Of a DNA stretch of 64,000 bases, positions 1 to 25,914 are shown piece after piece. Position 1 is the first letter of the stretch; each line of letters begins with the position of its first letter. The notes under the pieces are model-generated. The model ran no database searches and had not been told where the DNA came from. It saw only the letters and a program-made list of their open reading frames with translations. The stretch is taken from NCBI GenBank assembly GCA_045543495.1, contig JAZQMO010000019.1:17056-81055 (forward strand), written 5' to 3'. This DNA is from Eubacteriales bacterium. Its GTDB lineage: Bacteria > Bacillota > Clostridia > Oscillospirales > SIG627. Made by a program: the position numbers and the translations under genes.

Positions 1-373
<373 letters not shown>

Positions 374-2932: not shown

Positions 2933-3499
2933 TTATAAAAACAGGGGCTGAAGCTGGCGGTCCTCCCGTGCGGCACGGATGGCCTCGGGAAGAAGGGACA
3001 GATCACAGGAGAGAGAATAGGGCTTCTCCTCGGGAGCATCCTGCCGCATGGGGACAAAATAAAAGCCCTTTTTTTCAAGTAGTGTACCAAGACTCTTCAC
3101 CGAGCCCGAGAGGGCATCGTTGGTGGAGAGGGCGCAAAGCACCCGCCCGCCTCTGCGGCGGTGGGATTTGACTGCCATGGTCACACAGCCGTCGGTGATC
3201 CCCAGTGCCATTTTGGAAAGGGTGTTTCCCGTACAGGGGCACACCACCATCAGATCCAAGAGTCCCTTGGGGCCGATGGGCTCCGCCTCGGGAATGGTGA
3301 GAATGGGGCGCTCGCCCGTAATGGACTCCACCTTTGCCAGCACCTCCTCTTTTTTGAAAAAGCGGGTATCGGTTCCCGCTACATGCTCGGATACAATGGG
3401 GATGATACGGTAATCGTCCTTCAGACGCTTCATCCATTCAAAGGCCTTCTCCAGGGTGCAAAAGGAGCCCGTGAGAGCAAAGCCGATTGTTGGTTTCAA
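2933..3499 (-). CDS. dpaB: Dipicolinate synthase subunit B (SpoVFB, flavoprotein-like)
   Basis: 188 aa. MKPTIGFALTGSFCT...VCPCTGNTLSKMALGITD is typical of DpaB. Lies immediately downstream of dpaA. Confidence 0.85.
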   Translation of the reverse strand: MKPTIGFALTGSFCTLEKAFEWMKRLKDDYRIIPIVSEHVAGTDTRFFKKEEVLAKVESITGERPILTIPEAEPIGPKGLLDLMVVCPCTGNTLSKMALGITDGCVTMAVKSHRRRGGRVLCALSTNDALSGSVKSLGTLLEKKGFYFVPMRQDAPEEKPYSLSCDLSLLPEAIRAAREDRQLQPLFL

Positions 3500-3520: not shown

Positions 3521-4270
3521 TTATGTGAGAAACCGCTCCATGAGAGAAAAAATGGTCTCGGCCTCCGTTTCGGGAGCAAAGCGGCCGGGAAGAGAGGGGA
3601 GGGGGACCCATTGGATCCCTTGCTTGGCCAAGGCCTCGGGATCGGCTCCCGAAAGACCCGAGGCCACCTGAAAGAGCTTGGTGCCCTGTCGCATCCCACG
3701 GCAAAACGCCTCGGTGAGAAGGGGAGCGGGAACGGTGTTGATCACAAGGTCAAACATTCCCATCCGATCCCCCGGTGCGTGGTAGAGGTTGAAGCCGTCC
3801 TCCTTCGCTCGCTTCATGGAGCCCTCGTGGGAGAAGATCCAAACCTCGCTTCCGCACAGCCAAAAAAGCCTTGCCAGAGCTCGGCCGCAGTGGCCGTAGC
3901 CGCAGATGAGAATACAGGCCTCAGAAAGAAGCCTGTCGGTGCTTCTGATCACCTCGGAGAGAGTGCCCTCAGCGGTGGCGGAGCTGTTTTTTTCCAAATA
4001 CAGCTCCTCCTCCAGCAGGCAAAAAAGGGAGAGTCCCATTTCCTTCAGGGCAGTTTTCGTTTTTTCCGAGGCTCGCCCCGCAAACAGAACACTGCCCCGT
4101 TTTGCTTTCCTTGCGATCTGCAGGATCTCCTCGTCCCTTGCCCCCAAGGGGAGCAAATAGAGACCCCTCTTTTCCCTCGGCTCGCGGTGGCAGGTAAGCC
4201 CTCTTTCACGGCAAAGCCGCTCAATGGCGGAGAATCGCCCGTCGGTTCCCAAAATATAAACCTCGTCCAT
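3521..4270 (-). CDS. dpaA: Dipicolinate synthase subunit A (SpoVFA)
   Basis: 249 aa. Rossmann-type loop ILICGYGHCGRALA. Adjacent and upstream of dpaB, as in spoVFA-spoVFB. Confidence 0.8.
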   Translation of the reverse strand: MDEVYILGTDGRFSAIERLCRERGLTCHREPREKRGLYLLPLGARDEEILQIARKAKRGSVLFAGRASEKTKTALKEMGLSLFCLLEEELYLEKNSSATAEGTLSEVIRSTDRLLSEACILICGYGHCGRALARLFWLCGSEVWIFSHEGSMKRAKEDGFNLYHAPGDRMGMFDLVINTVPAPLLTEAFCRGMRQGTKLFQVASGLSGADPEALAKQGIQWVPLPSLPGRFAPETEAETIFSLMERFLT

Positions 4271-4450
4271 AAAAAGCCCTCCTTTACGGTTCCCTTTTAG
4301 AATATGATTTCAGGCAGCGCTTTGACACGGCACCTCCGATTTCTGACCGCTTTTTTTCTTTTGAAAACGAGAGCGATCAAAAGAGAAAAAAAGAAAAGTT
4401 TTTTGTGCAAAACGCATTAAAAAACATGGCTTTTTTGTGCAAATTGGCTC

Positions 4451-4480
4451 TTGCTTTCTCTTTCTGTGAAACGATACAAT
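4451..4480 (+). promoter_or_regulatory. Sigma-A type promoter of array unit 1
   Basis: TTGCTT (4451-4456), 18-nt spacer, TACAAT (4475-4480). Confidence 0.4.
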
Positions 4481-4536
4481 AAAGGTAAATCAAACTCCGA
4501 TTTTTCTTTCCGAAAATCGGCAAAAGGAGAATGACA

Positions 4537-5781
4537 ATGTTAAAAGATACCTTAAAGGAAAAAGGCTATATTCTTCCCGAAGGATTTTCCGTAGGCTTTG
4601 CCTCTGCGGTGGTCAATCCCCCCAACGGCGTCAGTATGGCAGGCTACGGCGTGGCCAATGCCAAGGTGAGACTGACCACGGAGAATTGGGAGGATCTGAA
4701 GGTTCTCTGCGCCGCTTGGTCCGACGGAGAAAATCTTACTATGACCTGTACCTTTGATACCTGTCAGATCGCCGAGAGCGTGGCAAGACCCGTGCTTCGT
4801 ATGATGGAGGAGGAGATCGGCATCCCCGAGGAAAATGTGATCTTCAACGTGATCCATACCCACGCCGCTCCCACCATGTATACCACCTCTGCCGATTGGC
4901 CCGGCGTTCCGGAGTATCAGAAAAACGTGTTTTACCCCGCCCTGCTTCAGGCCGCCAAGGAGGCGGTGAAGGATCTTGCTCCCGCTACCCTTTCTCTGGG
5001 CCGCGGCAAGACCGAGGGGCTTTCCTATGTGCGCCGCTATCTGCTCAGCGATGGCACCTACAAGACCAATCCCCGCGGAGACGATGTGCCCGTTGCACAC
5101 GAAACGAGCCACGATGAGACCATGCAGGTGGTTCGCATTCACCGTGAGGGCGCAAAGGATCTTGTTATCATCAACTGGCAGTGCCATCCCACCAGCGCAG
5201 GCGGTGCCGGTCATACCAATACCAGCCCCGACTGGGTGGGAATCCTGCGTGACCGTGTGGAGGCAGAGCTTGATGTGCACTGTATGTTCCATCAGGGCGC
5301 CGCAGGCAATATCGTAGGAAGCGGCAAGCTTCCCGGAGAAGAGGTGTTCGGCCGTGACCGCTATGTGGAGCACGGAGAAAAAATTGCCCGGGTGGCTCTG
5401 AAGATCCTCTCCTCTCCCATGGCTCCTCTTGCCACGGGTAAGGTGCAGGCCACCAAGAAAATGCTCCCCTTGCCTCGGAAGGAGGATGAGAGCACGACCC
5501 GCGATATTCCCATTTCCGCTCTGTCTATGGGTCAGCTTTCCTTTGCCACTGCGCCCTATGAAATGTTCTCTGCCAACGGAGAATGGATCAAGGCCAATAC
5601 CCCCTTTGATGTGACCTTCGTTTGTGAAAACACCAACGGGAACTACAACTACGTTCCCTCCAAGGAAAGCTATCCTCACGGAAGCTATGAGGTTCGCATC
5701 TGTCCCTTTGCCATGGGTGCCGCTGAGACCGTGGCCGAGGAGCTGGTTTCCATGCTCAAGGCTCAAAGCCAAAACGCTTAA
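4537..5781 (+). CDS. Neutral-ceramidase-like metallo-amidohydrolase, paralog 1 of 12 (cytoplasmic form, most divergent copy)
   Basis: ORF 4531..5781. ATG 4537 is better spaced from the AAAGGAGA SD. Motifs LPEGFSVGFA, NVIHTHAAP, LSYVRRY, INWQCHPTS, HQGAAGN, APYEMF, GSYEV. No signal peptide. CDS is certain; the family call rests on motif order only. Confidence 0.75.
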   Translation: MLKDTLKEKGYILPEGFSVGFASAVVNPPNGVSMAGYGVANAKVRLTTENWEDLKVLCAAWSDGENLTMTCTFDTCQIAESVARPVLRMMEEEIGIPEENVIFNVIHTHAAPTMYTTSADWPGVPEYQKNVFYPALLQAAKEAVKDLAPATLSLGRGKTEGLSYVRRYLLSDGTYKTNPRGDDVPVAHETSHDETMQVVRIHREGAKDLVIINWQCHPTSAGGAGHTNTSPDWVGILRDRVEAELDVHCMFHQGAAGNIVGSGKLPGEEVFGRDRYVEHGEKIARVALKILSSPMAPLATGKVQATKKMLPLPRKEDESTTRDIPISALSMGQLSFATAPYEMFSANGEWIKANTPFDVTFVCENTNGNYNYVPSKESYPHGSYEVRICPFAMGAAETVAEELVSMLKAQSQNA

Positions 5782-16298: not shown

Positions 16299-16345
16299 AA
16301 AGACAAGCAAAAAAACTGTTTTTGACAGGGAAAAAGGAGTATTTT

Positions 16346-17608
16346 ATGATGGAAAAAATGGTAAATCAGGGGATCACTTTCCCCGAGGGCTTTTCCGCAG
16401 GCTTCGGCCGTGCGGTGGTCAATCCTCTGCCCGGTACGGGTATGGCAGGCTGGGGCAATGCGACCCGCCGCCTTTCCGACCAAGTCGTAGATGATCTGAT
16501 GGTCACCTGCACCGCCCTTTGCGATGGAAATGAGGTGGTTCTGATCTATTCTCAGGACAATGGCTTTTCCGACCGCGCCATTTACTGTCGCATTACCGAA
16601 AAGCTGATGGCGGATTACGGGATTCCCGCCTCCCACATCATCGTCAATGCCACCCATACCCACTGCGCCCCCGCTATGTCCGATTCTTCGGTCCCCGGTG
16701 TGGAGGAATATCTGACCCGCTATTACGAGGCCGTGTACCGCATCGCCCACGAGGCCCTTTTGGATCTTGCTCCCGCCGAGATCCTCTCGGGAAAGACCTA
16801 TACCAAAAATCTTTCCTACGTGCGCCGCTACCTCTCGAAGCGTGACGGCTCCTTCATCGGCAACTGGCCGCCCATTCAGTACCCCACCGAGGCTCGCCAC
16901 GAGACCGAGCCGGACGAGATGCTTCAGGTGCTTCGCTTTGTAAGAAAAGAAAAGAAGGATATCGTCCTTTGCAACTGGCAGTGCCATCCCTGCTCCGAGA
17001 GGCTTGCGGGAGAAATGAGAAGCGAGATCTCCTCTGACTGGATCGGTGTGGCAAGAGAAGAGGTGGAAAAGAGAGAGGATGTGCTCTTCTCCTTCCATCA
17101 GGGCGCTTGCGGCAATGTGGTCTCCACCACCCATATTGCAGGAGAAAAGAACAATATCAAATACCGCACCAAGGGAATGGAGCTTTGTATGGCCATTCAG
17201 GAAGCCTTGGGAGACACCGGAAAGGTAAATGCGGGCAAGATTCAGGCCGTTCAGAAGGAATTTTGCGCCAAGCGAAGCCGTGATTGGATGGAGCGCTTTT
17301 CCGCCAAGACCGATCACGAGAATCTGTTTTTGAACATCATCGCCATCGGTGATATTGCCTTTGCCACCGCTCCCTGTGAGTGGTACGACGGCTGCGGTCG
17401 CTTCGTTCGGGAAACCTCCCCCTTCAAAACCACCTTTGTTTGCGGCTATACCAACGGCTCTCACAGCTACATTCCCGCCTCCTTCTGTTGGGAAAACGGT
17501 GGGTATGAGATCAAAAAATGCCACTTTGAAAGAGGCACGGGCGAAAAGATCGCCTTGGAGCATATTGAAGCATTAAATGCGTTATACGCAGAAAGAGAGG
17601 AACTATAA
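16346..17608 (+). CDS. Neutral-ceramidase-like amidohydrolase, paralog 9 (cytoplasmic form)
   Basis: ORF 16322..17608. ATG 16346 follows an AAAGGAG SD. MMEKMVNQGITFPEGFSAGFG. NATHTHCAP, LSYVRRY, CNWQCHPCS, HQGACGN, FCWENGGYE. Confidence 0.8.
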   Translation: MMEKMVNQGITFPEGFSAGFGRAVVNPLPGTGMAGWGNATRRLSDQVVDDLMVTCTALCDGNEVVLIYSQDNGFSDRAIYCRITEKLMADYGIPASHIIVNATHTHCAPAMSDSSVPGVEEYLTRYYEAVYRIAHEALLDLAPAEILSGKTYTKNLSYVRRYLSKRDGSFIGNWPPIQYPTEARHETEPDEMLQVLRFVRKEKKDIVLCNWQCHPCSERLAGEMRSEISSDWIGVAREEVEKREDVLFSFHQGACGNVVSTTHIAGEKNNIKYRTKGMELCMAIQEALGDTGKVNAGKIQAVQKEFCAKRSRDWMERFSAKTDHENLFLNIIAIGDIAFATAPCEWYDGCGRFVRETSPFKTTFVCGYTNGSHSYIPASFCWENGGYEIKKCHFERGTGEKIALEHIEALNALYAEREEL

Positions 17609-18862
17609 ATGGATCAGATGAAAATGAAGCAGCAGGGAATTTCCATTCCCGAGGGCTTCTCCGTTGGCTTCGGCCGCAGAGGGATCAATCCCCCTCCCGG
17701 AACGGGTCTCGGAGGATGGGGCAACTCCGATGTGAGAGTGTCCGATCAGATCAAGGACGATCTGGTGCTCTCCTGTACTGCTATTTGTGATGGTGAGGGC
17801 TTTCTCCTGCTTTATTCTCAGGATACCACGCAGTCCGGCAAGTCTCTGCAGGAGACCTTTGCCGCCGAGATCTTTGAGCTTTACGGGATTCCCGCCGAGC
17901 GTGTGATCATCAACGCCACCCATTCTCACACCGCTCCCGATATTCTGTCCAAAAAAGCCGCCGGGCACGAGGCGTATCAAGCCCTGTACCGCACCGCCTT
18001 TTTTGAGGCTACGGCAGAGGCTCTTTCAGACCTTGCCCCCGCCGAGATTCTGGCAGGCAGAACCTATACCGAAGGGATCTCCTTCGTGCGCCGCTACCTT
18101 TCCAAAAAGGATGGTTCCTTCCTCGGCAACTGGCCGCCCTTTCAGTATCCCGAAGAGGCCTATCACGAGACCCGCCCCGATGAAATGCTTCAGGTCATTC
18201 GCTTTGTGAGAGAGGCGGGGAAGGATGTGGTGCTCTGCAACTGGCAGTGCCACCCCTGCTCCGAGCTTGCAGGCTCCAAAAAGAGCGATGTTTCCTCTGA
18301 CTGGGTAGGCGTTTGCCGCAGTCAGATCGAGGCCAGAGAGGATATTTTCTTCTCCTATCATCAGGGTGCCTGCGGCAATGTGGTTTCCGGCTCCAAGATG
18401 GCCAATGATTCTCCCTTGAGATACAAGGCAAAGGGACATAAGCTTTGCTTTTTCGTTCAGGAAGCCCTCCGTGGGGCAACGCCTGTGAAATCGGGCAAGA
18501 TCCGTGCCGAGAAGCACGATTTTTACGCTCCCCGCAGCCGTGAATGGATGGAGAAATTTGGGGCTGAGAAGGATCACGAGTATCTCAATCTTACCACCGC
18601 CTGCTTCGGAGACGTGGCCATTGCCACCGCTCCTAACGAGCTGCACGACACCTGCGGAAGATTCATCCGTGAGGGCTCTCCCTTTAAGATGACCTTCTTC
18701 TGTGGCTATACCAACGGCTCTCAGAGCTACATTCCCGCCGCCTTCTGCTGGGAAAACGGCGGCTATGAAGTAGGAAAATGCCACTTTGTCCGTGGTACGG
18801 GCGAGAAGCTGACCTATCATCACCTGGATCTCTTGAACGAATTTTACGAAACGAGGGACTGA
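17609..18862 (+). CDS. Neutral-ceramidase-like amidohydrolase, paralog 10 (cytoplasmic form)
   Basis: 417 aa. The ATG directly abuts the paralog 9 stop (TAAATG). NATHSHTAP, ISFVRRY, CNWQCHPCS, HQGACGN, FCWENGGYEV. Confidence 0.8.
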   Translation: MDQMKMKQQGISIPEGFSVGFGRRGINPPPGTGLGGWGNSDVRVSDQIKDDLVLSCTAICDGEGFLLLYSQDTTQSGKSLQETFAAEIFELYGIPAERVIINATHSHTAPDILSKKAAGHEAYQALYRTAFFEATAEALSDLAPAEILAGRTYTEGISFVRRYLSKKDGSFLGNWPPFQYPEEAYHETRPDEMLQVIRFVREAGKDVVLCNWQCHPCSELAGSKKSDVSSDWVGVCRSQIEAREDIFFSYHQGACGNVVSGSKMANDSPLRYKAKGHKLCFFVQEALRGATPVKSGKIRAEKHDFYAPRSREWMEKFGAEKDHEYLNLTTACFGDVAIATAPNELHDTCGRFIREGSPFKMTFFCGYTNGSQSYIPAAFCWENGGYEVGKCHFVRGTGEKLTYHHLDLLNEFYETRD

Positions 18863-18864
18863 AA

Positions 18865-20121
18865 ATGAATTCTCATGCATTCAAATCGGCGGGAGCCGCC
18901 CTTCCTCAAGGCTTTTCGGCGGGCTTCGGTCGCAGAACCGTGAACCCTGAGGCAGGGACCTGTCTGGCGGGCTTCGGAAATCCCAATCGCCTTTCGGAAA
19001 AGGTGGTGGATGATCTGATGATCACCTGCACCGCCCTTTGCGATTCGGAGCAGATCCTGCTGATCTATTCGCTGGATCTTTGCTCCACCCGTGAGAGTAT
19101 GGTGGAGCGCGTCGTCTCCTGTTTGGGAGAAAAATTCGGCATTCCCGCCGAAAATATCATCCTGAACGCCACCCATACCCACTGCGGCCCCGATCTTCAC
19201 GAGGTGGGTCACGCAGGAATCGAAGCCTATCGGGAGCAGTATTTTGCTTCGCTTGAGGAAGCGGGTCGGGAGGCCATCCTGGATCTTACCCCCTGCGAAA
19301 TCAAGGTGGGAAGAACCTATACCGAGGGGATCTCCTTTGTGCGCCGCTACCTGTCCAAGCACGATGGCTCCTTTATCGGCAATTGGCCCAAGCCGCAGAA
19401 AAGCGAGGATGCCTATCACGAGACCCGCCCCGATGAGATGCTTCAGGTCATTCGCTTTGTGCGAGAAGAAAAGAAGGATATCGTTCTTTGCAACTGGCAG
19501 TGCCATCCCTGCTCCGGCAGACTGGCAGGGGAAATGAGAACGGATGTTTCCTCCGACTTTATCGGCCCTATGCGTGAGGCCTTGGAGGCAGAGGAGGAGA
19601 TCCTCTTCTCCTATCAGCAGGGCGCCTGCGGAAACGTGGTATCGGGCACCAAGATCATCACCGAAATGACCCCTCTTAATTATCGGATCAAGGGAATGAT
19701 CCTGTGCGGTGCCGTGAAGGAAGCTTTGAAGGCCGCCTATCCCGTCAAGGCGGGGAAGATCCGTGCCGTGAAGGAAGAGCTTTCCTTGAAGCGGAATGCG
19801 GCCTTTATGGAAAAATGGAAGGTGACAACGGATGCGGAGACCCTGCATCTGTCCACCGTCAGCATCGGAGATGTGGCCTTTGCCACCGCTCCTTGCGAAT
19901 TGCACGACGCCTGCGGAAGATTTATCCGTGAGGGCTCTCCCTTTAAGATGACCTTCTTCTGTGGCTACACCAACGGGGGACACGGCTACATTCCTGCCTC
20001 CTTCTGCTGGGAAAACGGCGGCTATGAGGTGAACAAATGCCATTTCCACCGTGGTGCGGGAGAGAGGATCGTGCGCCATCATCTGGAACAACTTGGTAAG
20101 CTTTACGAGGAGAGAGAATAA
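18865..20121 (+). CDS. Neutral-ceramidase-like amidohydrolase, paralog 11 (cytoplasmic form)
   Basis: ORF 18778..20121. ATG 18865 lies 2 nt after the paralog 10 stop. MNSHAFKSAGAALPQGFSAGFG. NATHTHCGP, ISFVRRY, CNWQCHPCS, QQGACGN, FCWENGGYEV. Confidence 0.8.
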   Translation: MNSHAFKSAGAALPQGFSAGFGRRTVNPEAGTCLAGFGNPNRLSEKVVDDLMITCTALCDSEQILLIYSLDLCSTRESMVERVVSCLGEKFGIPAENIILNATHTHCGPDLHEVGHAGIEAYREQYFASLEEAGREAILDLTPCEIKVGRTYTEGISFVRRYLSKHDGSFIGNWPKPQKSEDAYHETRPDEMLQVIRFVREEKKDIVLCNWQCHPCSGRLAGEMRTDVSSDFIGPMREALEAEEEILFSYQQGACGNVVSGTKIITEMTPLNYRIKGMILCGAVKEALKAAYPVKAGKIRAVKEELSLKRNAAFMEKWKVTTDAETLHLSTVSIGDVAFATAPCELHDACGRFIREGSPFKMTFFCGYTNGGHGYIPASFCWENGGYEVNKCHFHRGAGERIVRHHLEQLGKLYEERE

Positions 20122-21369
20122 ATGGATCGGACCAAGCTTCGGGAATGGAAGATCGCCGTTCCCGAGGGCTTTTCGGCGGGCTGGGCCAGAGAGGTGATCA
20201 ATCCTCTCCCCGGTACCTGCCTCGGCGGGTGGGCCACCGCCTCCAAGCGCTTATGCGAGGAGATTTTAGATGATATTATGGCCACCTGTACCGCCCTTTC
20301 CGACGGAAAAAGCATTTTCCTCTTTTATTCCCACGATGCGCTCTACATCCGTGACACTATGCTGGACGAGCAGACCCGCCGAGTGTGGGAAAAATACGGG
20401 ATCCCCGCAGAAAATGTGGTGATGAATGCCACCCATTCCCATTCTGCTCCCATTCTCCATTATCCTAAAATGAGCGGGATGCCCGAGTATATGGAGCGCT
20501 TCTGGGCGGCGATGGATCGCATTACCGAGGCGGCCATTCGGGATCTTGCGGAGGCCAAGCTTTTCATCGGCACCGCTCACACCAAGAACTTAAACTTTGT
20601 CCGCCGCTATGTTTCCATAGACGGCAAGGAGTATTTGGGAGGCTCCGCTCTCCCCAAGGGGCAGGATCCCACCAAGGTTCGCCACGAGACCGAGCCCGAC
20701 ACCGAAATGCAGGTGTTCCGCTTGGAGCGGGAGGGCAAAAAGAATATCGTTATGGTGAACTGGCAGTGCCATCCCTGCTCCGCAGGGGTGGGAAAAGAGT
20801 GGGGAACAGGCGTTTCCGCCGACTGGGTGGGCCATCTTCGTATGGGGGCAGAGGAGCTTTTGGATGCGCACTTTGTATACCATCAGGGCTGTGCAGGCAA
20901 TCTTGCCAACGCCTCCAAGCTTCAGGGAGTTCAGGCCATTACCGATTATAAGGCCAAGGGCCGTGCTTTGGCAGAGTATGTAAAAGAGGCCTACGACAAC
21001 GCCGCTCCCGCCAAAACGGGCGTCTTTCAGGCAAGCCGTCAGAATTTCATCGCCACCAACAATGAGCGATACCGTGAAAAGGAAAAGGCGGGCGAGACCG
21101 CTTCCCTGTATCTGAATACGCTGTCGATCGGCGATGTGGCCTTCGTCACCGTTCCCTGTGAGTGGCACGATACCTGCGGCCGTATGGTGAAGGATGCCTC
21201 TCCCTTCAAAATGACCTTCGTCTGCGCTTATTCCAACGGTGTGTTCAGCTACATTCCCTCCGCTCTCGCTTATTCCAACGGTGGGTACGAGTCCAAAATG
21301 TGCCACTTTGTCCGTGGCACGGGAGAAAAGATCGCCGAGGCGCTCATTGATTCTCTGAAAAAGATCTGA
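20122..21369 (+). CDS. Neutral-ceramidase-like amidohydrolase, paralog 12 (cytoplasmic form)
   Basis: 415 aa. The ATG abuts the paralog 11 stop. VPEGFSAGWA, NATHSHSAP, LNFVRRY, VNWQCHPCS, HQGCAGN, GGYES. Confidence 0.8.
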   Translation: MDRTKLREWKIAVPEGFSAGWAREVINPLPGTCLGGWATASKRLCEEILDDIMATCTALSDGKSIFLFYSHDALYIRDTMLDEQTRRVWEKYGIPAENVVMNATHSHSAPILHYPKMSGMPEYMERFWAAMDRITEAAIRDLAEAKLFIGTAHTKNLNFVRRYVSIDGKEYLGGSALPKGQDPTKVRHETEPDTEMQVFRLEREGKKNIVMVNWQCHPCSAGVGKEWGTGVSADWVGHLRMGAEELLDAHFVYHQGCAGNLANASKLQGVQAITDYKAKGRALAEYVKEAYDNAAPAKTGVFQASRQNFIATNNERYREKEKAGETASLYLNTLSIGDVAFVTVPCEWHDTCGRMVKDASPFKMTFVCAYSNGVFSYIPSALAYSNGGYESKMCHFVRGTGEKIAEALIDSLKKI

Positions 21370-21370
21370 A

Positions 21371-21412
21371 AACCAAAAAAGAAAAAGTCTTTTGCGTTTT
21401 GCAAAAGACTTT
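21371..21412 (-). terminator. Rho-independent terminator oriented for minus-strand transcription
   Basis: Perfect 12-bp stem AAAGTCTTTTGC(21384-21395)/GCAAAAGACTTT(21401-21412). The T-run (TTCTTTTTTGG) is present only on the minus-strand side. Confidence 0.5.
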
Positions 21413-21432
21413 AGTCTGAAGACAAAGTCCCG

Positions 21433-21470
21433 AACGGAGACACTTCGTAAAGAAGTAGTCTCCGTTTTTC
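21433..21470 (+). terminator. Rho-independent terminator closing the paralog array
   Basis: AACGGAGAC-ACTTC / GAAGT-A-GTCTCCGTT stem with a GTAAA loop, followed by TTTTTC. Confidence 0.7.
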
Positions 21471-21483
21471 TATATAAAGGAAA

Positions 21484-21570
21484 ATGACACTTTCAAAAAA
21501 TTGAAAGTGTCATAGTGGGTTACATACTTTTAAAAAGGTAAATACTTGCCGAAAAACAATTGTTTTTCGG
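21484..21570. other. Two perfect palindromes in non-coding DNA
   Basis: 13-bp stem ATGACACTTTCAA(21484-21496)/TTGAAAGTGTCAT(21501-21513) with an AAAA loop. 22-bp perfect palindrome CCGAAAAACAATTGTTTTTCGG (21549-21570). Confidence 0.8.
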
Positions 21571-21580
21571 TGCGTAAAGA

Positions 21581-21784
21581 ATGATATATCTCTAACGAGA
21601 TATGATATACGGCTTTGCCGTATGATATATTTTCACTTCGTGAAAACATGATATAATATCCGTTCCTTAATATGCCGCAGGCATATATCATCGCTCGCAG
21701 AACGATATCATACCGAAGGTATATCACCCGTTCCGTAAAGGAACGGATATCATTGAGGCACACTTCCTTACAGAGTGTGCCTCA
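21581..21784. repeat. Heptamer/hairpin array: 4 direct ATGATAT followed by 4 inverted ATATCA(T/C), each spacer a distinct mini-palindrome
   Basis: ATGATAT starts at 21581, 21602, 21622 and 21648. The reverse complement ATATCAT starts at 21685, 21705 and 21747, and ATATCAC at 21721. Spacers are atctc-taac-gagat, acggc-ttt-gccgt, ttttcac-ttc-gtgaaaa, atgcc-gca-ggcat, cgctc-gca-gaacg, acc-gaa-ggt and ccgttcc-gtaaa-ggaacgg. A terminal 10-bp stem TGAGGCACAC/GTGTGCCTCA spans 21754-21784. Confidence 0.85.
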
Positions 21785-21800
21785 AAGGGGCTTTGTTTTT

Positions 21801-22544
21801 TTATCGCTCGATGCCAAGATCCTCTAAGCTCAGGGAGATGCCTTCGGTCTCTTCGTCATCAATTTCGGGCCCGTCCTCCGAGAGGGGGGTAGGGGGAATT
21901 TTCTTCTGCGGCTTCTCGCCTGCCGAAAGGCGAAGCCAAAGAGCAAGGGAATAGGAAAGATAATAGAGAAAAACGGAAATGACAAAGAAGCGGTAACGGA
22001 AGGAGGATAGGGTGCCGAGGGGCAGAAGCTGGGTGAAATAAAACTGCGAGAGCTTTTCATCCAGCGCAAAGGATAGGATCAAAAGAGTGCCTTCTATGAG
22101 AGCGTGGCCCAGACAAAGCTGAGCGGCAAGGCGGGAAAACAACGGATTCTTTGCCGAAAGGATCACCATAGCCCCCATCAAAAGAAGAAAAATGAGGGTG
22201 ATCAGCACCGTGCCGTGCACCTTTTTTCCTCCCGCAATGACCAAAATTTCCAGTGCTCCATAAAGGAAAAGGGGAAGGGCAGCGGGAATGGCAAAGGACA
22301 GACCCTGCGGGGAAGAGAAAAGACTTACCGCCAAGGCCAAGATCAGGCAGAAGGGAGCGGCCATCCAGCAAAGATCCGCCAGAAGAGACAGGGTACCCTG
22401 CTCGGTGGAAACGGGGATCTCAAAATAAGCATCCATTCCTCTCCCGTCGGAAAACCAGCCCCAGGCAAAAAAGGTAAAAAACAGCATCATCAGGGCCAAA
22501 AAAAGGGAAAGGCCGCAGCAGAGATAATAGCGAATTTGTTTCAT
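21801..22544 (-). CDS. Hypothetical multi-pass membrane protein with acidic C-terminal tail
   Basis: 247 aa. Several hydrophobic segments (e.g. LCCGLSLFLALMMLFFTFFAWGW, VLITLIFLLLMGAMVIL). C-terminus PEIDDEETEGISLSLEDLG. No recognisable family. Confidence 0.6.
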   Translation of the reverse strand: MKQIRYYLCCGLSLFLALMMLFFTFFAWGWFSDGRGMDAYFEIPVSTEQGTLSLLADLCWMAAPFCLILALAVSLFSSPQGLSFAIPAALPLFLYGALEILVIAGGKKVHGTVLITLIFLLLMGAMVILSAKNPLFSRLAAQLCLGHALIEGTLLILSFALDEKLSQFYFTQLLPLGTLSSFRYRFFVISVFLYYLSYSLALWLRLSAGEKPQKKIPPTPLSEDGPEIDDEETEGISLSLEDLGIER

Positions 22545-22664
22545 AGCGATCTCACTTTGTTTTGATTGCCTCTATTATAGAAAAAAATCCTCCTTCCGTC
22601 AAGACTTGGCATTGCGTGGCAGGCTCGCTGCGTGGTATGGTGTGAAAAAAAAGGAGGTTCAATC

Positions 22665-23057
22665 GTGAAGAAGTTAACAGAAAAAAAGGTAAAACGCTGT
22701 CTGGAGGAGTATTTTTCCTCCCGCCGAGTGGCAAAACGGAATTCGGAGGGGGAGATCCTTGTGGCCAAAACGGGGGAGATCCTCTTTGAGGAGCGTCCCT
22801 GCACCGTGACGGGACTTGCCCTTGCCTTGGGAATGAGCCGTCGGGAGGAGATGGATCAGATCAAGGAGAAAAAAGTAAAAGCGCTCATTGACCGAGCGCT
22901 TTTGAGAATTGAAGAGAGTGCCGAGGAAAAGCTTTTTTCCAAGGACACCGTCAACGGTGCCAAGCTGTTCCTTTCCACCAATTTTCGGCGTTGGCAGGGC
23001 ACGGTGGAGGAGGAAGCCCCCGCCAATTTGGGGGTCTGCACCCTGTGGGCCGAGTGA
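22665..23057 (+). CDS. Phage terminase small subunit-like protein (orphan)
   Basis: ORF 22632..23057. GTG 22665 follows an AGGAGG SD. The HTH-like block PCTVTGLALALGMSRRE and the C-terminal GAKLFLSTNFRRWQG resemble TerS proteins of Firmicute phages. Confidence 0.55.
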   Translation: MKKLTEKKVKRCLEEYFSSRRVAKRNSEGEILVAKTGEILFEERPCTVTGLALALGMSRREEMDQIKEKKVKALIDRALLRIEESAEEKLFSKDTVNGAKLFLSTNFRRWQGTVEEEAPANLGVCTLWAE

Positions 23058-23678
23058 TCACAGATCCAAAATCAAAAAGACCTTGCCCTGGTGAACCTGA
23101 ACCCGAGTCTCCCCTGCGATCTCATTGCTGACTCCCAAGGGAAAATCAATGGTGAGGGGAGCGTGGGACAAATTGTATTTTGCTCCCGAAACGGAAACGA
23201 TGGCCTTTTCCGTGGCGGAAAAGAGGGAAAAATAGCGGCAGGGCGCAAGGGAGATCTCTTCCCCCTGCTCCACAAGATCGATCCTGCATTTTAAATCCCG
23301 AATTTGCCCCTTGGCCCCCTTGGAGGAGAGGGTCAGAAGGGTGGAAAGGTTTGCCACGGTGTGGGAAAAGCGGTTTCCGCCCATGGCTCCGTAGAGAACG
23401 AAGCGGCGGTAGCCCAAATTCAGGCCCTCCCGCACGGCGGCGAGGGTATCGGTATCGTCCTTTACCTTGGGGAGAACAATGGATCTGACTCCTTCGGGAG
23501 AAAAGCCGAGGGAGTCCGAATCGCCAATATAAAGGTCGCAAGGGATGCCCGCCTCCCGTAAGAGGGCATAGCCTCGGTCTGCGGCGATGACAAGATCGCC
23601 CGCTTCTGTTTCAAAGACGGCGGGATCAAAATCCCCCGCTCCTACGATGCGGCAGACACCGCTTTTTCCTTCTGACAT
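23058..23678 (-). CDS. thiN: Thiamine diphosphokinase (thiamine pyrophosphokinase)
   Basis: 206 aa. IGDSDSLG and KVKDDTDTLAAV motifs typical of TPK. Downstream of thiT under a TPP riboswitch. Confidence 0.8.
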   Translation of the reverse strand: MSEGKSGVCRIVGAGDFDPAVFETEAGDLVIAADRGYALLREAGIPCDLYIGDSDSLGFSPEGVRSIVLPKVKDDTDTLAAVREGLNLGYRRFVLYGAMGGNRFSHTVANLSTLLTLSSKGAKGQIRDLKCRIDLVEQGEEISLAPCRYFSLFSATEKAIVSVSGAKYNLSHAPLTIDFPLGVSNEIAGETRVQVHQGKVFLILDL

Positions 23679-23684
23679 ATTACC

Positions 23685-24338
23685 TCAATTCTTTTTCACA
23701 AAGGGAAGTCGGGAAACGGGAATGGCGGCCACAAGGGTGATCACGGTCTCGGGAAGCATATAAAGCCCGTTGTATACCACGGAGTAAACAAGGGAAAGAG
23801 AAAAGCCCGAGAAGGTTTCCATGGCCCATTGGGAGATGGCAAAATCCTTGGCGGCGCTTTCCAAAAAGAACCATTCTGCCCAAGCCCCGTAGAAGATGGC
23901 ACCGGAGAGCACGTGGAACAGGTAGCAAAGGGCACAGCCTAAGATCGAGCCCGAAACCAGCGCCTTTGCAGGGGAGAGGTGGCGAAAGACGCCTCCGAGC
24001 CCCACCGAGGTAAAGGCGAGAATGTAATCCAGAAGCAAAATGGCAAAGGCCACTCCCACCGATCCCATATAGGAATCGGAATCGGGTAAAAACAGGCCCG
24101 AAACGGTCTTGAAGCCAATGGCCATCTGCAAGAGGGAATACACGAAGGCACTGCCAAGACCCCAGCGAACGCCATACAGATAAGAGATCAGAACAAGGGG
24201 CAAAAGGCTTGCGATGGTGACGGTGCCGCCGAAGGGGAGGTTTAAGAAGGGGATCCATTCGGATACCAGCGAAATGGCGCTGCCCAAGGCAATCAGCATT
24301 GCCGAGGTGACCAGCTTTTGTGTTTTGGTGTGATTCAT
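23685..24338 (-). CDS. thiT: Thiamine ECF-transporter S component (ThiT-like)
   Basis: 217 aa, about 6 TM segments. First gene after a TPP riboswitch and immediately upstream of thiN. Confidence 0.7.
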   Translation of the reverse strand: MNHTKTQKLVTSAMLIALGSAISLVSEWIPFLNLPFGGTVTIASLLPLVLISYLYGVRWGLGSAFVYSLLQMAIGFKTVSGLFLPDSDSYMGSVGVAFAILLLDYILAFTSVGLGGVFRHLSPAKALVSGSILGCALCYLFHVLSGAIFYGAWAEWFFLESAAKDFAISQWAMETFSGFSLSLVYSVVYNGLYMLPETVITLVAAIPVSRLPFVKKN

Positions 24339-24349
24339 ACGACACTCCT

Positions 24350-24485
24350 ATAAAAAAATTCGCACAGGACGGAAGTCCCGTGCGAACGTGAATCTGTTCT
24401 CCATAAAAACTCCCTACGCCGGTATTATCCATCTCAGGTGAAAGGGTTTGCATTTCTGCATCTCAGCCGTAGCACCCCTGTTTTT
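24350..24485 (-). promoter_or_regulatory. TPP (THI-box) riboswitch with terminator expression platform
   Basis: Minus strand reads GGGGTGCTACGGCTGAGATGCAGAAATGCAAACCCTTTCACCTGAGATGGATAATACCGGCGTAGGGA (about 24482-24410). This carries the CTGAGA and ACCTGA..GGATAATACC..GCG.AGGGA hallmarks. It is followed by hairpin CGCACGGG/CCTGTGCG (24384-24361) plus AATTTTTTTA. Confidence 0.9.
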
Positions 24486-24506
24486 TCCGCTCTTGTGCGT
24501 AGCCTT

Positions 24507-24535
24507 ATGATAACTTCTTTTTTTGGATTTGTCAA
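24507..24535 (-). promoter_or_regulatory. Sigma-A type promoter of the riboswitch-thiT-thiN unit
   Basis: Minus strand TTGACA (24535-24530), 17-nt spacer, TATCAT (24512-24507). Overlaps the 5' end of the terL ORF on the other strand. Confidence 0.5.
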
Positions 24536-24543
24536 GTAAAAAA

Positions 24544-25914
24544 ATGAATGCAACTGAAAAATTATTATCCACCCTGCACCCCTTTCCTCCGCAGGAGGCT
24601 TTTTTTCGTGCCCGTGCACGGCGCATCGCCTACGGCGGGGCGAGAGGGGGCGGGAAGAGCTTTGCCATGCGAGCAAAGCTTGTGCTCCTTGCTCTGCGCT
24701 ATCCCGGAATTCAGATCCTTCTGCTTCGGCGCACCTTTCCCGAGCTTCGGGAAAACCACATCAATCCCCTGCGCCGCTGGCTTTACGGCATTGCCACCTA
24801 TCGGGATTCCACCAAGGAATTTCTGTTCCCCGGCGGCTCCCGCATCAAGCTGGGCTACCTTTCGGAGGAGGGGGACGCCCTTCAGTATCAGGGTCAGGCC
24901 TATGAGGTCATCGGAATGGAGGAGGCCACGCAGTTTACGGAAAGTCAGTATTACGCCATGACCGAGTGCTGCCGCTTGGCGGGGCAGATGAAGGAAAAAT
25001 TTGTGCCCCGTATGTATTTTACCTGTAACCCCGGCGGGGTGGGACACGCTTGGGTCAAGCGCCTTTTCATTGATCGGGATTACCGAGCGGGGGAGGATGG
25101 GAGGGACTATGTTTTCATTCCCTCCACCGTTTATGACAACCGCTATCTCATTCAGGAAAATCCCGAGTATGTGCGAAGCCTGGAGAGCCTGCCGCCCCTG
25201 CGCCGCCGAGCTATGCTGGACGGAGATTGGGATGCCTTCGAGGGGCAGTATTTCACGGAATTTGACCGTGCCAAGCACGAAATCGCCCCCTTTGCCATTC
25301 CCTCCCATTGGCATCGCTTTGCCGCCTTGGACTACGGCCTTGATATGACCGCCTGCCTTTTATTTGCCTACCCGCCCGATCAGAGCCGCCTTGTGGTATA
25401 CGGGGAATTGTATGAGCCGGATCTTGTGCTCTCCCAAGCGGCGGAAAAGATCGTGGAAATGACCAAGGGGCAGAATCTGCGCTATGTCACTGCCTCTCCC
25501 GACCTTGCGGGGCGGCGGCAGGACGGGGGCAAATCGGGCTTTGATATTCTGCAAAAGGGCGGGGTCAAGGGCCTTGTCAGCGCCGATAACGCCCGCATCC
25601 CCGGCTGGCGCAGAGTGCGGGAATTTTTGCGGGCCGAGGGAGAGGAGGGGGCGTATCTGGGCATCTTTTCCAATTGCCGAAACCTGCTTCGCACCTTGCC
25701 CTCCCTCACCTTTGACCCCATCAAGACCGAGGATGCCGCCCTGACGCCCCACGAATATACCCACGCCCCCGATGCCCTGCGCTACGGTCTGTCCTCCCTG
25801 CCCTTTCTCCCCGGTGCCCCTTTGCCCAAAAAGGAAGAAAAATGGGATGTGGTGCAGTCCTTTTTCGGGAAGGAGCGCTCCCGCAGCGATTATCTTGGTT
25901 TTTTGAAAAAATAA
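24544..25914 (+). CDS. Phage terminase large subunit-like protein (orphan)
   Basis: ORF 24523..25914; first ATG at 24544. Walker A YGGARGGGKSF, Walker B-like EVIGMEEAT, a C-terminal RNaseH-like nuclease block (ALDYGLDMTAC...) and the terminal HAPDALRY typical of TerL. Confidence 0.8.
   Translation: MNATEKLLSTLHPFPPQEAFFRARARRIAYGGARGGGKSFAMRAKLVLLALRYPGIQILLLRRTFPELRENHINPLRRWLYGIATYRDSTKEFLFPGGSRIKLGYLSEEGDALQYQGQAYEVIGMEEATQFTESQYYAMTECCRLAGQMKEKFVPRMYFTCNPGGVGHAWVKRLFIDRDYRAGEDGRDYVFIPSTVYDNRYLIQENPEYVRSLESLPPLRRRAMLDGDWDAFEGQYFTEFDRAKHEIAPFAIPSHWHRFAALDYGLDMTACLLFAYPPDQSRLVVYGELYEPDLVLSQAAEKIVEMTKGQNLRYVTASPDLAGRRQDGGKSGFDILQKGGVKGLVSADNARIPGWRRVREFLRAEGEEGAYLGIFSNCRNLLRTLPSLTFDPIKTEDAALTPHEYTHAPDALRYGLSSLPFLPGAPLPKKEEKWDVVQSFFGKERSRSDYLGFLKK

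What the first reader, a model, noticed from the sequence alone, without database searches (positions are those of the whole stretch)
21371..21800. About 400 bp of wall-to-wall stem-loops with a 4 + 4 inverted heptamer array (ATGATAT / ATATCAT)
The intergenic tract after the array contains at least 12 stem-loops. It includes a 12-bp and a 13-bp perfect stem, a 22-bp perfect palindrome, and a terminal 10-bp stem. Its core (21581-21753) has ATGATAT four times in direct orientation, with starts spaced 21, 20 and 26 nt apart. The exact reverse complement ATATCAT (one copy ATATCAC) then occurs four times, with starts spaced 20, 16 and 26 nt apart. Every spacer is a different short palindrome closed by a C-G pair with a 3-5-nt loop. 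The heptamers could pair pairwise in a nested fashion (4-1', 3-2', 2-3', 1-4'). That would produce a rod of stacked four-way junctions in RNA or single-stranded DNA. Alternatively they could be about two-helical-turn-spaced protein-binding iterons. I do not recognise this as any known riboswitch, REP/BIME, attC, CRISPR or IS end. Terminator polarity (T-runs on the minus side at 21371-21383 and after the 21484-21513 stem) suggests it may be transcribed as the 3' extension of the minus-strand membrane-protein gene 21801-22544. An orphan terS gene lies about 0.9 kb away, so a relic packaging or recognition site is another possibility.
Basis: seen in the sequence. Interest (0 to 1): 0.8.

Follow-up and report, generated by a model that had tools for sequence, protein, structure and literature searches.

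The report
Gut-1 RNA with mirrored heptamer halves
The stem-loop tract is a real member of Gut-1, a gut-bacterial structured RNA family catalogued in 2010 whose function is still unknown; comparing relatives shows it is about twice as large as the catalogued motif and has a built-in alternative fold.

Summary
Eight TGATAT/ATATCA heptamers lie in 171 bp (Poisson P about 1e-14), and each is separated from the next by a short palindrome.

It is not an unknown class. Rfam's Gut-1 RNA (RF01706) matches the minus strand at 21755-21680 with 59.3 bits (threshold 50). The plus-strand half scores 39.3 bits.

More than 120 related loci from gut Oscillospirales genomes show that 4 + 4 is the commonest layout. 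All hairpins covary. A 14-16 bp long-range helix, here called P0, competes with hairpin 1, and both alternatives covary.

G·U versus A·C counts place both halves on one strand, the window's minus strand.

The complementary heptamer follows the heptamer variant across relatives: ATGATAT/ATATCAT, GTGATAT/ATATCAC, GTGAAAT/ATTTCAC.

About 43% of copies sit directly after tRNA genes. One Avd-like four-helix-bundle gene subfamily always lies just downstream of such an element. The family is nearly absent from phage collections, so a packaging site is unlikely.

Function is still unknown. My best guess is a two-state, multivalent RNA binding platform.

The parts
21753..21785 (-). Leading 12-bp hairpin directly 5' of the first heptamer. 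It is the counterpart of the terminator hairpin that precedes the element in tRNA-linked relatives, but in the window no U-run follows it on the minus strand.
21680..21755 (-). Gut-1 RNA motif proper (the 5' half): heptamers CAAUGAUAU, GUGAUAU, AUGAUAU, AUGAUAU with hairpins hp1 (21728-21746), hp2 (21711-21721) and hp3 (21692-21704).
   Evidence: Rfam RF01706, 59.3 bits against a gathering score of 50, full-length match. Hairpins are 94-99% paired with double changes.
21672..21684 (-). Central hairpin AUGCC-UGC-GGCAU. Its sequence is conserved across subfamilies, and it is replaced by UACGC-UUC-GCGUA in L378/L379.
21738..21753 (-). 5' strand of long-range helix P0 (first heptamer plus the 5' arm of hp1). 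It pairs either locally to form hp1 or with 21653-21668.
21653..21668 (-). 3' strand of long-range helix P0 (AAGGAACGGAUAUUAU).
   Evidence: 14 pairs, 98.5% of cells paired, 8 pairs changed on both sides, at least 7 sequence versions.
21580..21654 (-). 3' half: four complementary heptamers AUAUCAU (plus-strand ATGATAT at 21648, 21622, 21602, 21581) separated by hairpins 21630-21646, 21609-21621 and 21588-21601.
   Evidence: Rfam sub-threshold hit on the plus strand, 39.3 bits. Hairpins are 98% paired with double changes. G.U 9 versus A.C 1 on the minus strand.
21549..21570 (-). 22-bp palindrome hairpin. The stem ends CCGAAAA/UUUUCGG are conserved in four close relatives and the interior varies.
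21514..21548 (-). Conserved unpaired linker (AAGUAUUUACC...GUAUGUAACCCACUA), nearly invariant in L171, L225, L226 and L231. On the plus strand it also reads as a promoter-like TTGAAA-16-CATACT.
21474..21513 (-). Minus-strand intrinsic terminator (13-bp stem at 21484-21513, then UUUUCCUUUAU). It is the likely 3' end of the RNA.
21433..21466 (.). Bidirectional hairpin with an A-run on one side and a T-run on the other. It is the likely terminator of the plus-strand gene 20122-21369 and marks the end of the block conserved in relatives.
21384..21412 (.). 12-bp perfect stem with flanking A/T runs. It is terminator-like on the minus strand, is not conserved in relatives, and is probably not part of the Gut-1 element.

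Best explanation
The core, 21580-21785, is one copy of the Gut-1 structured non-coding RNA family (Rfam RF01706) in its full, bipartite form.

**Shown**
- It is read on the window's minus strand.
- From 5' to 3' it consists of: a leading hairpin; four RUGAUAU heptamers held between three short clamp hairpins; a conserved central hairpin; then four complementary AUAUCAU heptamers between three more hairpins.
- In this lineage the block continues with a further hairpin, a conserved linker and an intrinsic terminator at about 21480.
- A long-range helix (P0, 21738-21753 with 21653-21668) and hairpin 1 use the same 5' strand. Both covary, so the RNA has two mutually exclusive folds.

**Inferred**
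- The RNA is made by transcription running on from the upstream gene (21801-22544 here; usually a tRNA operon in relatives).
- The hairpins serve to juxtapose and display the heptamers as a multivalent recognition surface for a sequence-specific partner, either a protein or another nucleic acid.
- The complementary 3' half can mask the 5' heptamers in a zipper fold. Alternatively it is released when P0 closes the 5' half into a multi-helix junction. This would give a switchable sponge or scaffold.
- A candidate partner is the Avd-like four-helix-bundle protein (PF05635), whose gene is tightly linked to such elements in other loci.
For: - **Family membership.** Gut-1 scores 59.3 bits against a gathering score of 50 over the full model. 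Every left half in 18 related loci scores 50-67 bits.
- **Architecture.** The 4 + 4 layout is the commonest, in 31 of 67 elements.
- **Hairpins.** All eight local hairpins are 97-99% paired, and 25 of 50 pairs show changes on both sides.
- **Two folds.** P0 has 14 pairs, 98.5% paired, with 8 pairs changed on both sides. Hairpin 1 has 7 pairs, 94.4% paired, with 6 changed on both sides. P0 exists in at least 7 sequence versions.
- **Strand.** Among unique hairpins with one transition mismatch, G.U outnumbers A.C by 15 to 2 on the family's forward strand (left half 6:1, right half 9:1). In the left-half P0 fold there are 64 G.U cells against 8 A.C cells. The window's own hp3 has a G.U pair on the minus strand only.
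- **Transcription signals.** No terminator lies between the gene and the element, and minus-strand terminators follow it. The conserved 165-nt tail ends in a terminator in four relatives. A forward terminator also follows the element in the L123 type.
- **Complementary heptamers track the variant.** Downstream of TGATAT-type elements, ATATCA outnumbers ATTTCA 444 to 11. Downstream of TGAAAT-type elements, ATTTCA outnumbers ATATCA 24 to 1.
- **Spacers.** 78% of 298 unique spacers form a stem of at least 4 bp flush with the heptamers, against 6% when shuffled. Spacer length varies from 16 to 27 nt.
- **Selection rather than recent spread.** Copies within one genome are no more alike (0.79) than random pairs (0.78). 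Orthologues after the same tRNA are slightly more alike (0.81).
- **Energetics.** Fold energies are -86.7 kcal/mol (P0 fold), -83.4 (hairpin 1 enforced) and -77.8 (all four heptamer pairs enforced).
- **PF05635 linkage.**
Against: - No expression data could be consulted, so an RNA product is inferred, not shown.
- In tRNA-linked relatives a strong intrinsic terminator stands immediately upstream of the element. No promoter lies between them, so the RNA would exist only through terminator read-through.
- Identical heptamers in both orientations are what a double-stranded DNA-binding protein would require.
- Mutated single heptamers are not compensated, and the two halves often have unequal unit numbers. 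A fully paired zipper is therefore not strictly required.
- In the L148/L150 type the two halves are separated by a bidirectional terminator and look like two convergent genes.
- Promoter-like sites exist on the window's plus strand at 21501-21528 (conserved in relatives) and at 21630-21657 (TGATATAAT).
- The window has no PF05635 gene.
- No binding partner is known.
Confidence: 0.5

Rival explanations
1. Two convergent or antisense small RNA genes. Each half would be its own Gut-1 RNA, read on the strand where its heptamers are RUGAUAU. For the plus-strand unit, transcription would start from a promoter left of the element (window 21501-21528) or from the internal TGATATAAT (21649-21657) and end at the 21753-21791 hairpin and T-run.
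For: - Rfam gives a 39.3-bit plus-strand hit at 21579-21651.
- Plus-strand promoter-like sites are TTGAAA-16-CATACT and TTTTCA-16-TATAAT with an upstream TG, and there is a plus-strand terminator-like site at 21779-21791.
- The first promoter-like site is conserved in four relatives.
- The L148/L150/L121 type has a bidirectional terminator between the halves.
- Gut-1 units also occur in tandem arrays.
Against: - In the window's subfamily the right-half hairpins carry G.U pairs on the minus strand (9 versus 1). One U.G pair is kept in 7 orthologous loci, and it would be a C.A mismatch on the plus strand.
- P0 links the two halves on one strand, with fixed G.U pairs.
- No terminator lies between the halves in this subfamily.
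Confidence: 0.15
2. A DNA-level element. The heptamers would be binding sites for a protein on double-stranded or folded single-stranded DNA. That would make it an operator/iteron array, a recombination site working on attC-like logic, or the ends of a small non-autonomous mobile element targeted to the 3' side of tRNA genes.
For: - The same heptamer occurs in both orientations and changes in concert in both halves between subfamilies.
- The commonest spacing is 20-22 bp.
- The right end abuts a TTGAAA-17-TAnAAT promoter in about 20 of 45 aligned loci.
- 44 of 103 loci follow tRNA genes with 24 different anticodons, and the same terminator hairpin sequence recurs after different tRNAs.
- Downstream genes differ after the same tRNA.
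- The element plus the PF05635 gene behaves as a transferable block bounded by the tRNA CCA end and the gene's stop codon.
Against: - The strand-specific G.U bias is not expected for double-stranded DNA.
- Spacers covary to remain hairpins, and 47% of spacings fall outside 20-22 nt.
- No flanking direct repeats or distal att-like copy were found.
- Copies within a genome are no more similar than copies between genomes, so there has been no recent spread.
- The flanks carry housekeeping genes, with no recombinase or transposase among the neighbours scanned.
- There are no plasmid or phage records.
Confidence: 0.15
3. A relic phage packaging (pac-like) site linked to the nearby terS-like gene at 22632-23057.
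For: - GP3_package and Terminase_3 genes lie 0.9 and 2.7 kb away.
- In phage P1 the pac site has hexamer repeats on both sides of the cut (my own knowledge, not tested here).
Against: - The family pattern hits only 2 of 2.9 million viral contigs, and no phage record matches.
- Relatives sit after tRNA genes next to housekeeping genes, without terminase genes.
- The element covaries as a folded single strand.
Confidence: 0.02
4. An ordinary cluster of transcription terminators between convergent genes, with the heptamers arising by chance.
For: The tract lies between convergent genes, and five terminator-like sites are found where 0.7 are expected.
Against: - Eight heptamers in 171 bp has P of about 1e-14.
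- The array hairpins lack U-runs.
- The whole unit is conserved in more than 100 loci with covariation.
Confidence: 0.02

Closest known systems
Gut-1 RNA motif (Rfam RF01706; Weinberg et al. 2010, PMC2864571)
   Same: - Three short hairpins are separated by RUGAWAU linkers.
- It is found in gut Clostridia-type sequences.
- The stems covary.
- The window's minus-strand half matches the full model above the gathering score.
   Different: - The published model covers only 77 nt, and the paper's text says only that the motif occurs in human-gut sequences.
- The element here is about 205 nt. It adds a central hairpin, a competing long-range helix and a second half made of complementary heptamers.
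- The second half is visible but not annotated in the flanks of the original alignment.
- The published consensus heptamer is UGAAAU; here it is UGAUAU.
CsrB/RsmZ-type protein-sequestering small RNAs
   Same: Working analogy only. Many copies of one short unpaired motif are displayed between or on variable hairpins, and several paralogous genes occur per genome.
   Different: - The motif differs (RUGAWAU rather than GGA).
- No cognate protein is known.
- Those RNAs have no built-in complementary half.
- Membership is not claimed.
Integron attC sites
   Same: - Structure is conserved while sequence is not.
- Folding is strand-specific.
- Seven-base core and inverse-core sites lie in inverted orientation.
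- Variable genes lie next to the site.
   Different: - attC is a single imperfect hairpin with one pair of core sites and extrahelical bases, and it is used by an IntI integrase.
- Here there are 4 + 4 heptamers with separate hairpins.
- No integrase was found among the neighbours scanned, and there are no cassette arrays.
REP/BIME elements and REPINs
   Same: They are intergenic, lie at the 3' ends of transcription units or between convergent genes, consist of palindromic units in both orientations, and occur in several copies per genome.
   Different: - REP palindromes are conserved in sequence while the linkers vary. Here the linkers are conserved and the palindromes vary with compensation.
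- Copies within a genome are not especially similar.

Membership tests
Gut-1 RNA (RF01706) | Covariance-model score at or above the curated gathering score over the full model | tested here: met
   59.3 bits against 50, model positions 1-77, minus strand 21755-21680. The plus-strand half scores 39.3 bits, below threshold.
Gut-1 RNA (RF01706) | Three hairpins separated by conserved RUGAWAU linkers | tested here: met
   Read directly from the sequence and the Rfam alignment.
Gut-1 RNA (RF01706) | Stems supported by compensatory changes among homologues | tested here: met
   Hairpins are 94-99% paired, with 25 of 50 pairs changed on both sides. Slid-partner controls give 30-46% paired.
Gut-1 RNA (RF01706) | Occurrence in gut-associated uncultured Clostridia | tested here: met
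   More than 120 loci, almost all from Oscillospiraceae, Acutalibacteraceae or Clostridia genomes assembled from animal and human gut samples.
Gut-1 RNA (RF01706) | Expressed as a discrete non-coding RNA | not testable with these tools
   No transcript data were available. The strand is inferred from G.U/A.C asymmetry and terminators.
REP/BIME or MITE-type repeat | Many near-identical copies within a genome (recent spread) | tested here: not met
   Mean identity is 0.79 within a genome and 0.78 for random pairs. The test rests on few within-genome pairs.
REP/BIME or MITE-type repeat | Target-site duplication or flanking direct repeats | tested here: not met
   No consistent 12-mer repeats flank the elements.
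Integron attC site | Adjacent integron integrase and arrays of cassettes each ending in such a site | tested here: not met
   Most 8-kb loci hold one element. No integrase was found among the window neighbours or the four loci scanned.
Phage pac/cos site | Located in phage genomes beside terminase genes | tested here: not met
   2 hits in 2.9 million viral contigs, no match in 50,697 phage records, and relatives lie in housekeeping contexts.
Protein-sponge small RNA (CsrB/RsmZ-like, by analogy) | A cognate protein that binds the repeated motif | not testable with these tools
   The only clue is genomic linkage to an Avd-like PF05635 gene in other loci.

The most novel reading that the evidence does not exclude
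Gut-1 elements may be bistable, self-complementary RNA (or single-stranded DNA) devices. Their repeated heptamers would be read by an oligomeric Avd-like four-helix-bundle protein. Together with a promoter and that gene, they would form a block that has been placed immediately after many different tRNA genes. That would make it a previously undescribed tRNA-gene-linked RNA-protein system in gut Oscillospirales.
Probability: 0.12. Interest if true: 0.75.

Novelty: new member of a known kind. Interest (0 to 1): 0.45.

Why it matters
Gut-1 has been in Rfam since 2010 with no function, no named host and a one-sentence description.

This copy and its relatives add several things:
- Hosts: Oscillospirales.
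- A likely strand.
- A fuller architecture: two complementary heptamer halves and a covarying alternative helix.
- A preferred genomic address, directly after tRNA operons.
- A tightly linked protein gene (PF05635, Avd-like).

Together these turn an orphan motif into something that can be tested with pull-downs, structure probing and existing gut metatranscriptomes.

The finding does not reveal a new class of element.

Tried and rejected
- **Exact-protein look-up** of the neighbouring membrane protein found nothing on record.
- **Relatives of that protein** in genome contigs gave no confirmed locus and cost one scan.
The pattern was tightened with the central hairpin. This biases the sample towards elements carrying GCCTGCGGCA.
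- **The first alignment-based G.U/A.C count** mis-registered hp3 and the variable loops. It wrongly suggested opposite strands for the two halves. It was replaced by per-hairpin counts on unique sequences and by counts on alignment A2.
- **A reverse-strand small RNA driven by the conserved TGATATAAT** was considered in detail and set aside because of the G.U evidence.
- **Invertible-promoter reading of P0.** The segment is only about 75 bp, and no inverted variant occurs among 67 loci.
- **Heptamer-by-heptamer compensation** was parsed, but the heptamers are nearly invariant. The few variants (ATAACAC, ATATAAC, ATTTCAC in L148) are not compensated.
- **A search for distal att-like repeats** found none.
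- **Small ORFs starting at the AUG or GUG of the heptamers.** The reading frame is not preserved because loop lengths vary.
- **Literature searches** for Gut-1, RF01706, tRNA-downstream repeats and the heptamer returned nothing beyond the 2010 paper.
- **The metagenome scan for GTGAAAT arrays** returned mostly unrelated tandem repeats. About 12 usable Gut-1 elements remained after filtering for hairpin spacers.

Full report
**What is there**

The tract lies between convergent genes. On the plus strand, 20122-21369 is the last of four tandem ceramidase-like paralogues. On the minus strand, 21801-22544 is a hydrophobic protein with no Pfam match.

ATGATAT starts at 21581, 21602, 21622 and 21648. 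ATATCAT/C starts at 21685, 21705, 21721 and 21747. Every interval between heptamers is a short palindrome. Eight of the window's 34 TGATAT/ATATCA hexamers fall in 171 bp, where 0.07 are expected (P about 1e-14). Both strands fold much better than shuffled sequence, with z = -9.9 and -8.4.

Two corrections apply. The terminal stem is 12 bp, not 10. The spacer at 21692-21704 has an A.C mismatch on the plus strand that is a G.U pair on the minus strand.

**It belongs to a known family**

Rfam's Gut-1 RNA (RF01706) matches the minus strand at 21755-21680 over the whole model, with 59.3 bits against a gathering score of 50. The plus strand at 21579-21651 scores 39.3 bits.

Gut-1 comes from Weinberg et al. 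2010 (PMC2864571). The paper says only that the motif is found in human-gut sequences and in no sequenced organism, and classes it as a probable non-coding RNA. I found no later paper about it. The flanks printed in the original alignment already show ATATCAC arrays after some GUGAUAU arrays, for example in BAAZ01000095, but they are not annotated.

**Relatives**

Almost all hits are gut-derived Oscillospiraceae, Acutalibacteraceae or Clostridia genomes assembled from metagenomes, and several genomes contribute 3-7 copies.
- L205 is nearly identical to the window but lacks one hairpin-plus-heptamer unit.
- L171, L225, L226 and L231 share the window's flanks.
- Among 67 elements of the window's subfamily, 4 + 4 is the commonest layout (31 elements). 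Other layouts differ by deletions between heptamers.
- Rfam recognises the left half in all 18 loci tested, at 50-67 bits.

**Structure proven by comparison**

All eight local hairpins are 97-99% paired. Of 50 pairs, 25 show changes on both sides, against 30-46% pairing when the partners are slid.

A long-range helix, here called P0, joins the first heptamer plus the 5' arm of hairpin 1 to the segment just after the central hairpin (window 21738-21753 with 21653-21668). It has 14 pairs, 98.5% paired, 8 of them with changes on both sides. At least seven sequence versions exist, for example ATGATATCCGTTCC/GGAACGGATATTAT, GTTTTATTCGCC/GGCGAATAAAAT and TAAATAAATCC/GGATTTATTTA.

Hairpin 1 uses the same 5' strand and also covaries (7 pairs, 6 with changes on both sides). 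The element therefore has two mutually exclusive pairings.

**Which strand**

I counted unique hairpins that carry exactly one internal transition mismatch. G.U outnumbers A.C by 15 to 2 on the family's forward strand, which is the window's minus strand. The left half gives 6:1 and the right half 9:1. One U.G pair is kept in seven orthologous loci.

In the left-half alignment there are 64 G.U cells, fixed in whole clades, against 8 scattered A.C cells. Both halves therefore fold on the same strand. In this subfamily the right half is not an independent Gut-1 unit on the opposite strand.

In the window no terminator separates gene 21801-22544 from the element, and minus-strand terminators follow at 21513-21484 and 21412-21384. 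Four relatives conserve about 165 nt beyond the right half: the 22-bp palindrome hairpin, a nearly invariant linker and the 21484-21513 terminator. A forward terminator also follows the element in the L123 type.

No expression data could be consulted.

**Heptamers and their complements**

The two halves always carry complementary versions: ATGATAT with ATATCAT, and GTGATAT with ATATCAC. In metagenome loci found with a GTGAAAT pattern, the partner is ATTTCAC (L276, L292, L336, L352, L358, L335).

In the 250 nt downstream of TGATAT-type arrays, ATATCA outnumbers ATTTCA 444 to 11. Downstream of TGAAAT-type arrays the ratio is 1 to 24. The right half was not part of either search pattern.

This complementarity is consistent with pairing between the halves, or with one double-stranded site read in both orientations. 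Several points argue against a rigid zipper. Single deviant heptamers are not compensated. Unit numbers are often unequal, for example 3 + 4 or 4 + 2. The L148/L150 type has a bidirectional terminator between the halves.

Heptamer spacing ranges from 16 to 27 nt, with 53% at 20-22 nt. Of 298 unique spacers, 78% form a flush stem of at least 4 bp, against 6% of shuffled spacers. The constant feature is that a hairpin brings neighbouring heptamers together, not a fixed distance along the DNA.

**Genomic address**

In 44 of 103 loci with enough upstream sequence, a tRNA gene on the same strand ends about 45 nt before the first heptamer. These tRNAs have 24 different anticodons, and none lies on the opposite strand. 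The element then starts 1-4 nt after the CCA end with an A-run, a terminator hairpin and a U-run, and the same terminator hairpin sequence recurs after different tRNAs.

The window type instead follows a protein gene and has a leading hairpin without a U-run.

Copies within one genome are no more alike than random pairs (0.79 versus 0.78), while copies after the same tRNA in different genomes are slightly more alike (0.81). These are therefore old paralogues under selection, not a recently spreading repeat. No flanking direct repeats were found. The flanks carry housekeeping genes. The family is essentially absent from viral contigs, phage records and plasmid records.

**A linked protein gene**

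In about 20 of 45 aligned loci the right end (ATATCATTGAAA) runs straight into a TTGAAA-17-TAnAAT promoter. The first downstream gene is a PF05635 four-helix-bundle protein in 13 of about 95 loci.

Of 16 such genes in the 827 kb fetched, 12 lie 110-190 nt after the centre of the element on the same strand. All 17 contexts of two further members of this protein subfamily carry the element upstream wherever the contig reaches far enough. Homology between loci stops at the gene's stop codon, which often overlaps the next gene's start as ATGA.

PF05635 resembles Avd, the accessory protein of diversity-generating retroelements (PMC10053308). That Avd binds nucleic acid and forms a pentamer is my own knowledge, not tested here. 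The window itself has no such gene.

**How it most likely works**

Shown: family membership, the hairpins, the P0/hairpin 1 alternative, the common strand, and the matched heptamer halves.

Inferred: an RNA made by transcription running on from the upstream unit, with clamp hairpins that display eight heptamers as a multivalent surface. The 3' half can mask the 5' heptamers, or it is freed when P0 closes the 5' half into a multi-helix junction. This resembles a switchable sponge or scaffold. The Avd-like protein is a candidate partner.

I put about 0.95 on family membership, about 0.7 on a minus-strand single-stranded form, and about 0.3 on the specific mechanism.

Rivals are two convergent or antisense RNAs (0.15), a DNA-level protein-binding or recombination element (0.15), a relic packaging site (0.02), and a plain terminator cluster (0.02).

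**Verdict**

The added value is the extended architecture, the hosts, the strand, the tRNA address and the linked protein gene.

Noticed in passing
window 22632-25914: A terS-like gene (GP3_package, 22632-23057, plus strand) and a terL-like gene (Terminase_3, 24523-25914, plus strand) are separated by two minus-strand genes. These are a thiamin pyrophosphokinase (23058-23678) and an unassigned gene (23680-24453) that is preceded by a TPP riboswitch (24489-24394, minus strand, 60.5 bits).
   Followed up: no
window 16322-21369: Four tandem plus-strand paralogues (415-447 aa) each match the neutral/alkaline ceramidase N-terminal domain just below Pfam's cut-off (19.6-31.6 bits against a cut-off of 32.1).
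   Followed up: no
L137 about 3035-3110; L147; L175; L335: An optional conserved module of about 75 nt (...GGTACCCGCTCGAAATCTTTGATTTCG[TC]CAGCGGG...) is inserted exactly between the P0 3' strand and the first complementary heptamer. It occurs in both TGATAT-type and TGAAAT-type elements. No Rfam family matches it.
   Followed up: partly
L145 2032-2382, L229 2214-2564, L237 6600-6950, L363-L379 and others: One highly conserved subfamily of PF05635 (Avd-like four-helix-bundle) genes always lies just downstream of a Gut-1 element and its promoter. The gene's stop codon often overlaps the start codon of an unrelated next gene (ATGA).
   Followed up: partly
window 21581-21753 and all relatives: Every heptamer RUGAWAU contains a start codon (AUG or GUG) overlapping a UGA stop codon. 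No conserved reading frame results, because loop lengths vary.
   Followed up: partly
L188, L230, L220 (CAATTCATG arrays); L219 (GTTGTAT/GTTGTTT arrays); L127 7900-8000: The same genomes carry other arrays of short hairpins separated by different conserved linkers. L127 ends in a pure tandem array of the 18-nt unit GTGATATTGCCTGCGGCA. This suggests a wider superfamily of linker-plus-hairpin arrays.
   Followed up: no
L148 about 4270-4560; L150 about 30-260; L121: In this variant the left and right heptamer arrays are separated by a bidirectional intrinsic terminator, so they look like two convergent Gut-1 genes rather than one transcript.
   Followed up: partly
window 21501-21528 and 21630-21657 (plus strand): There are promoter-like sites on the strand opposite to the inferred RNA. 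TTGAAA-16-CATACT is conserved in L171, L225, L226 and L231. An extended -10 TGATATAAT is formed by the junction of the P0 3' strand and the first complementary heptamer. Antisense transcription is possible.
   Followed up: partly
L123 2222-2320: A bacterial small SRP RNA gene lies divergently about 140 nt upstream of a Gut-1 element.
   Followed up: no
L134, L153, L156, L159, L162, L168, L187, L191, L195, L203, L214 (right flank): One paralogue lineage shares a conserved flank of about 70 nt after the element (TTTTGTGAGAGTTCGAATTCATACGCAAAA...TTTTTTGTAGCCCATAGACAAAAAA). It contains a sequence resembling a tRNA T-arm. Its nature is unknown.
   Followed up: no
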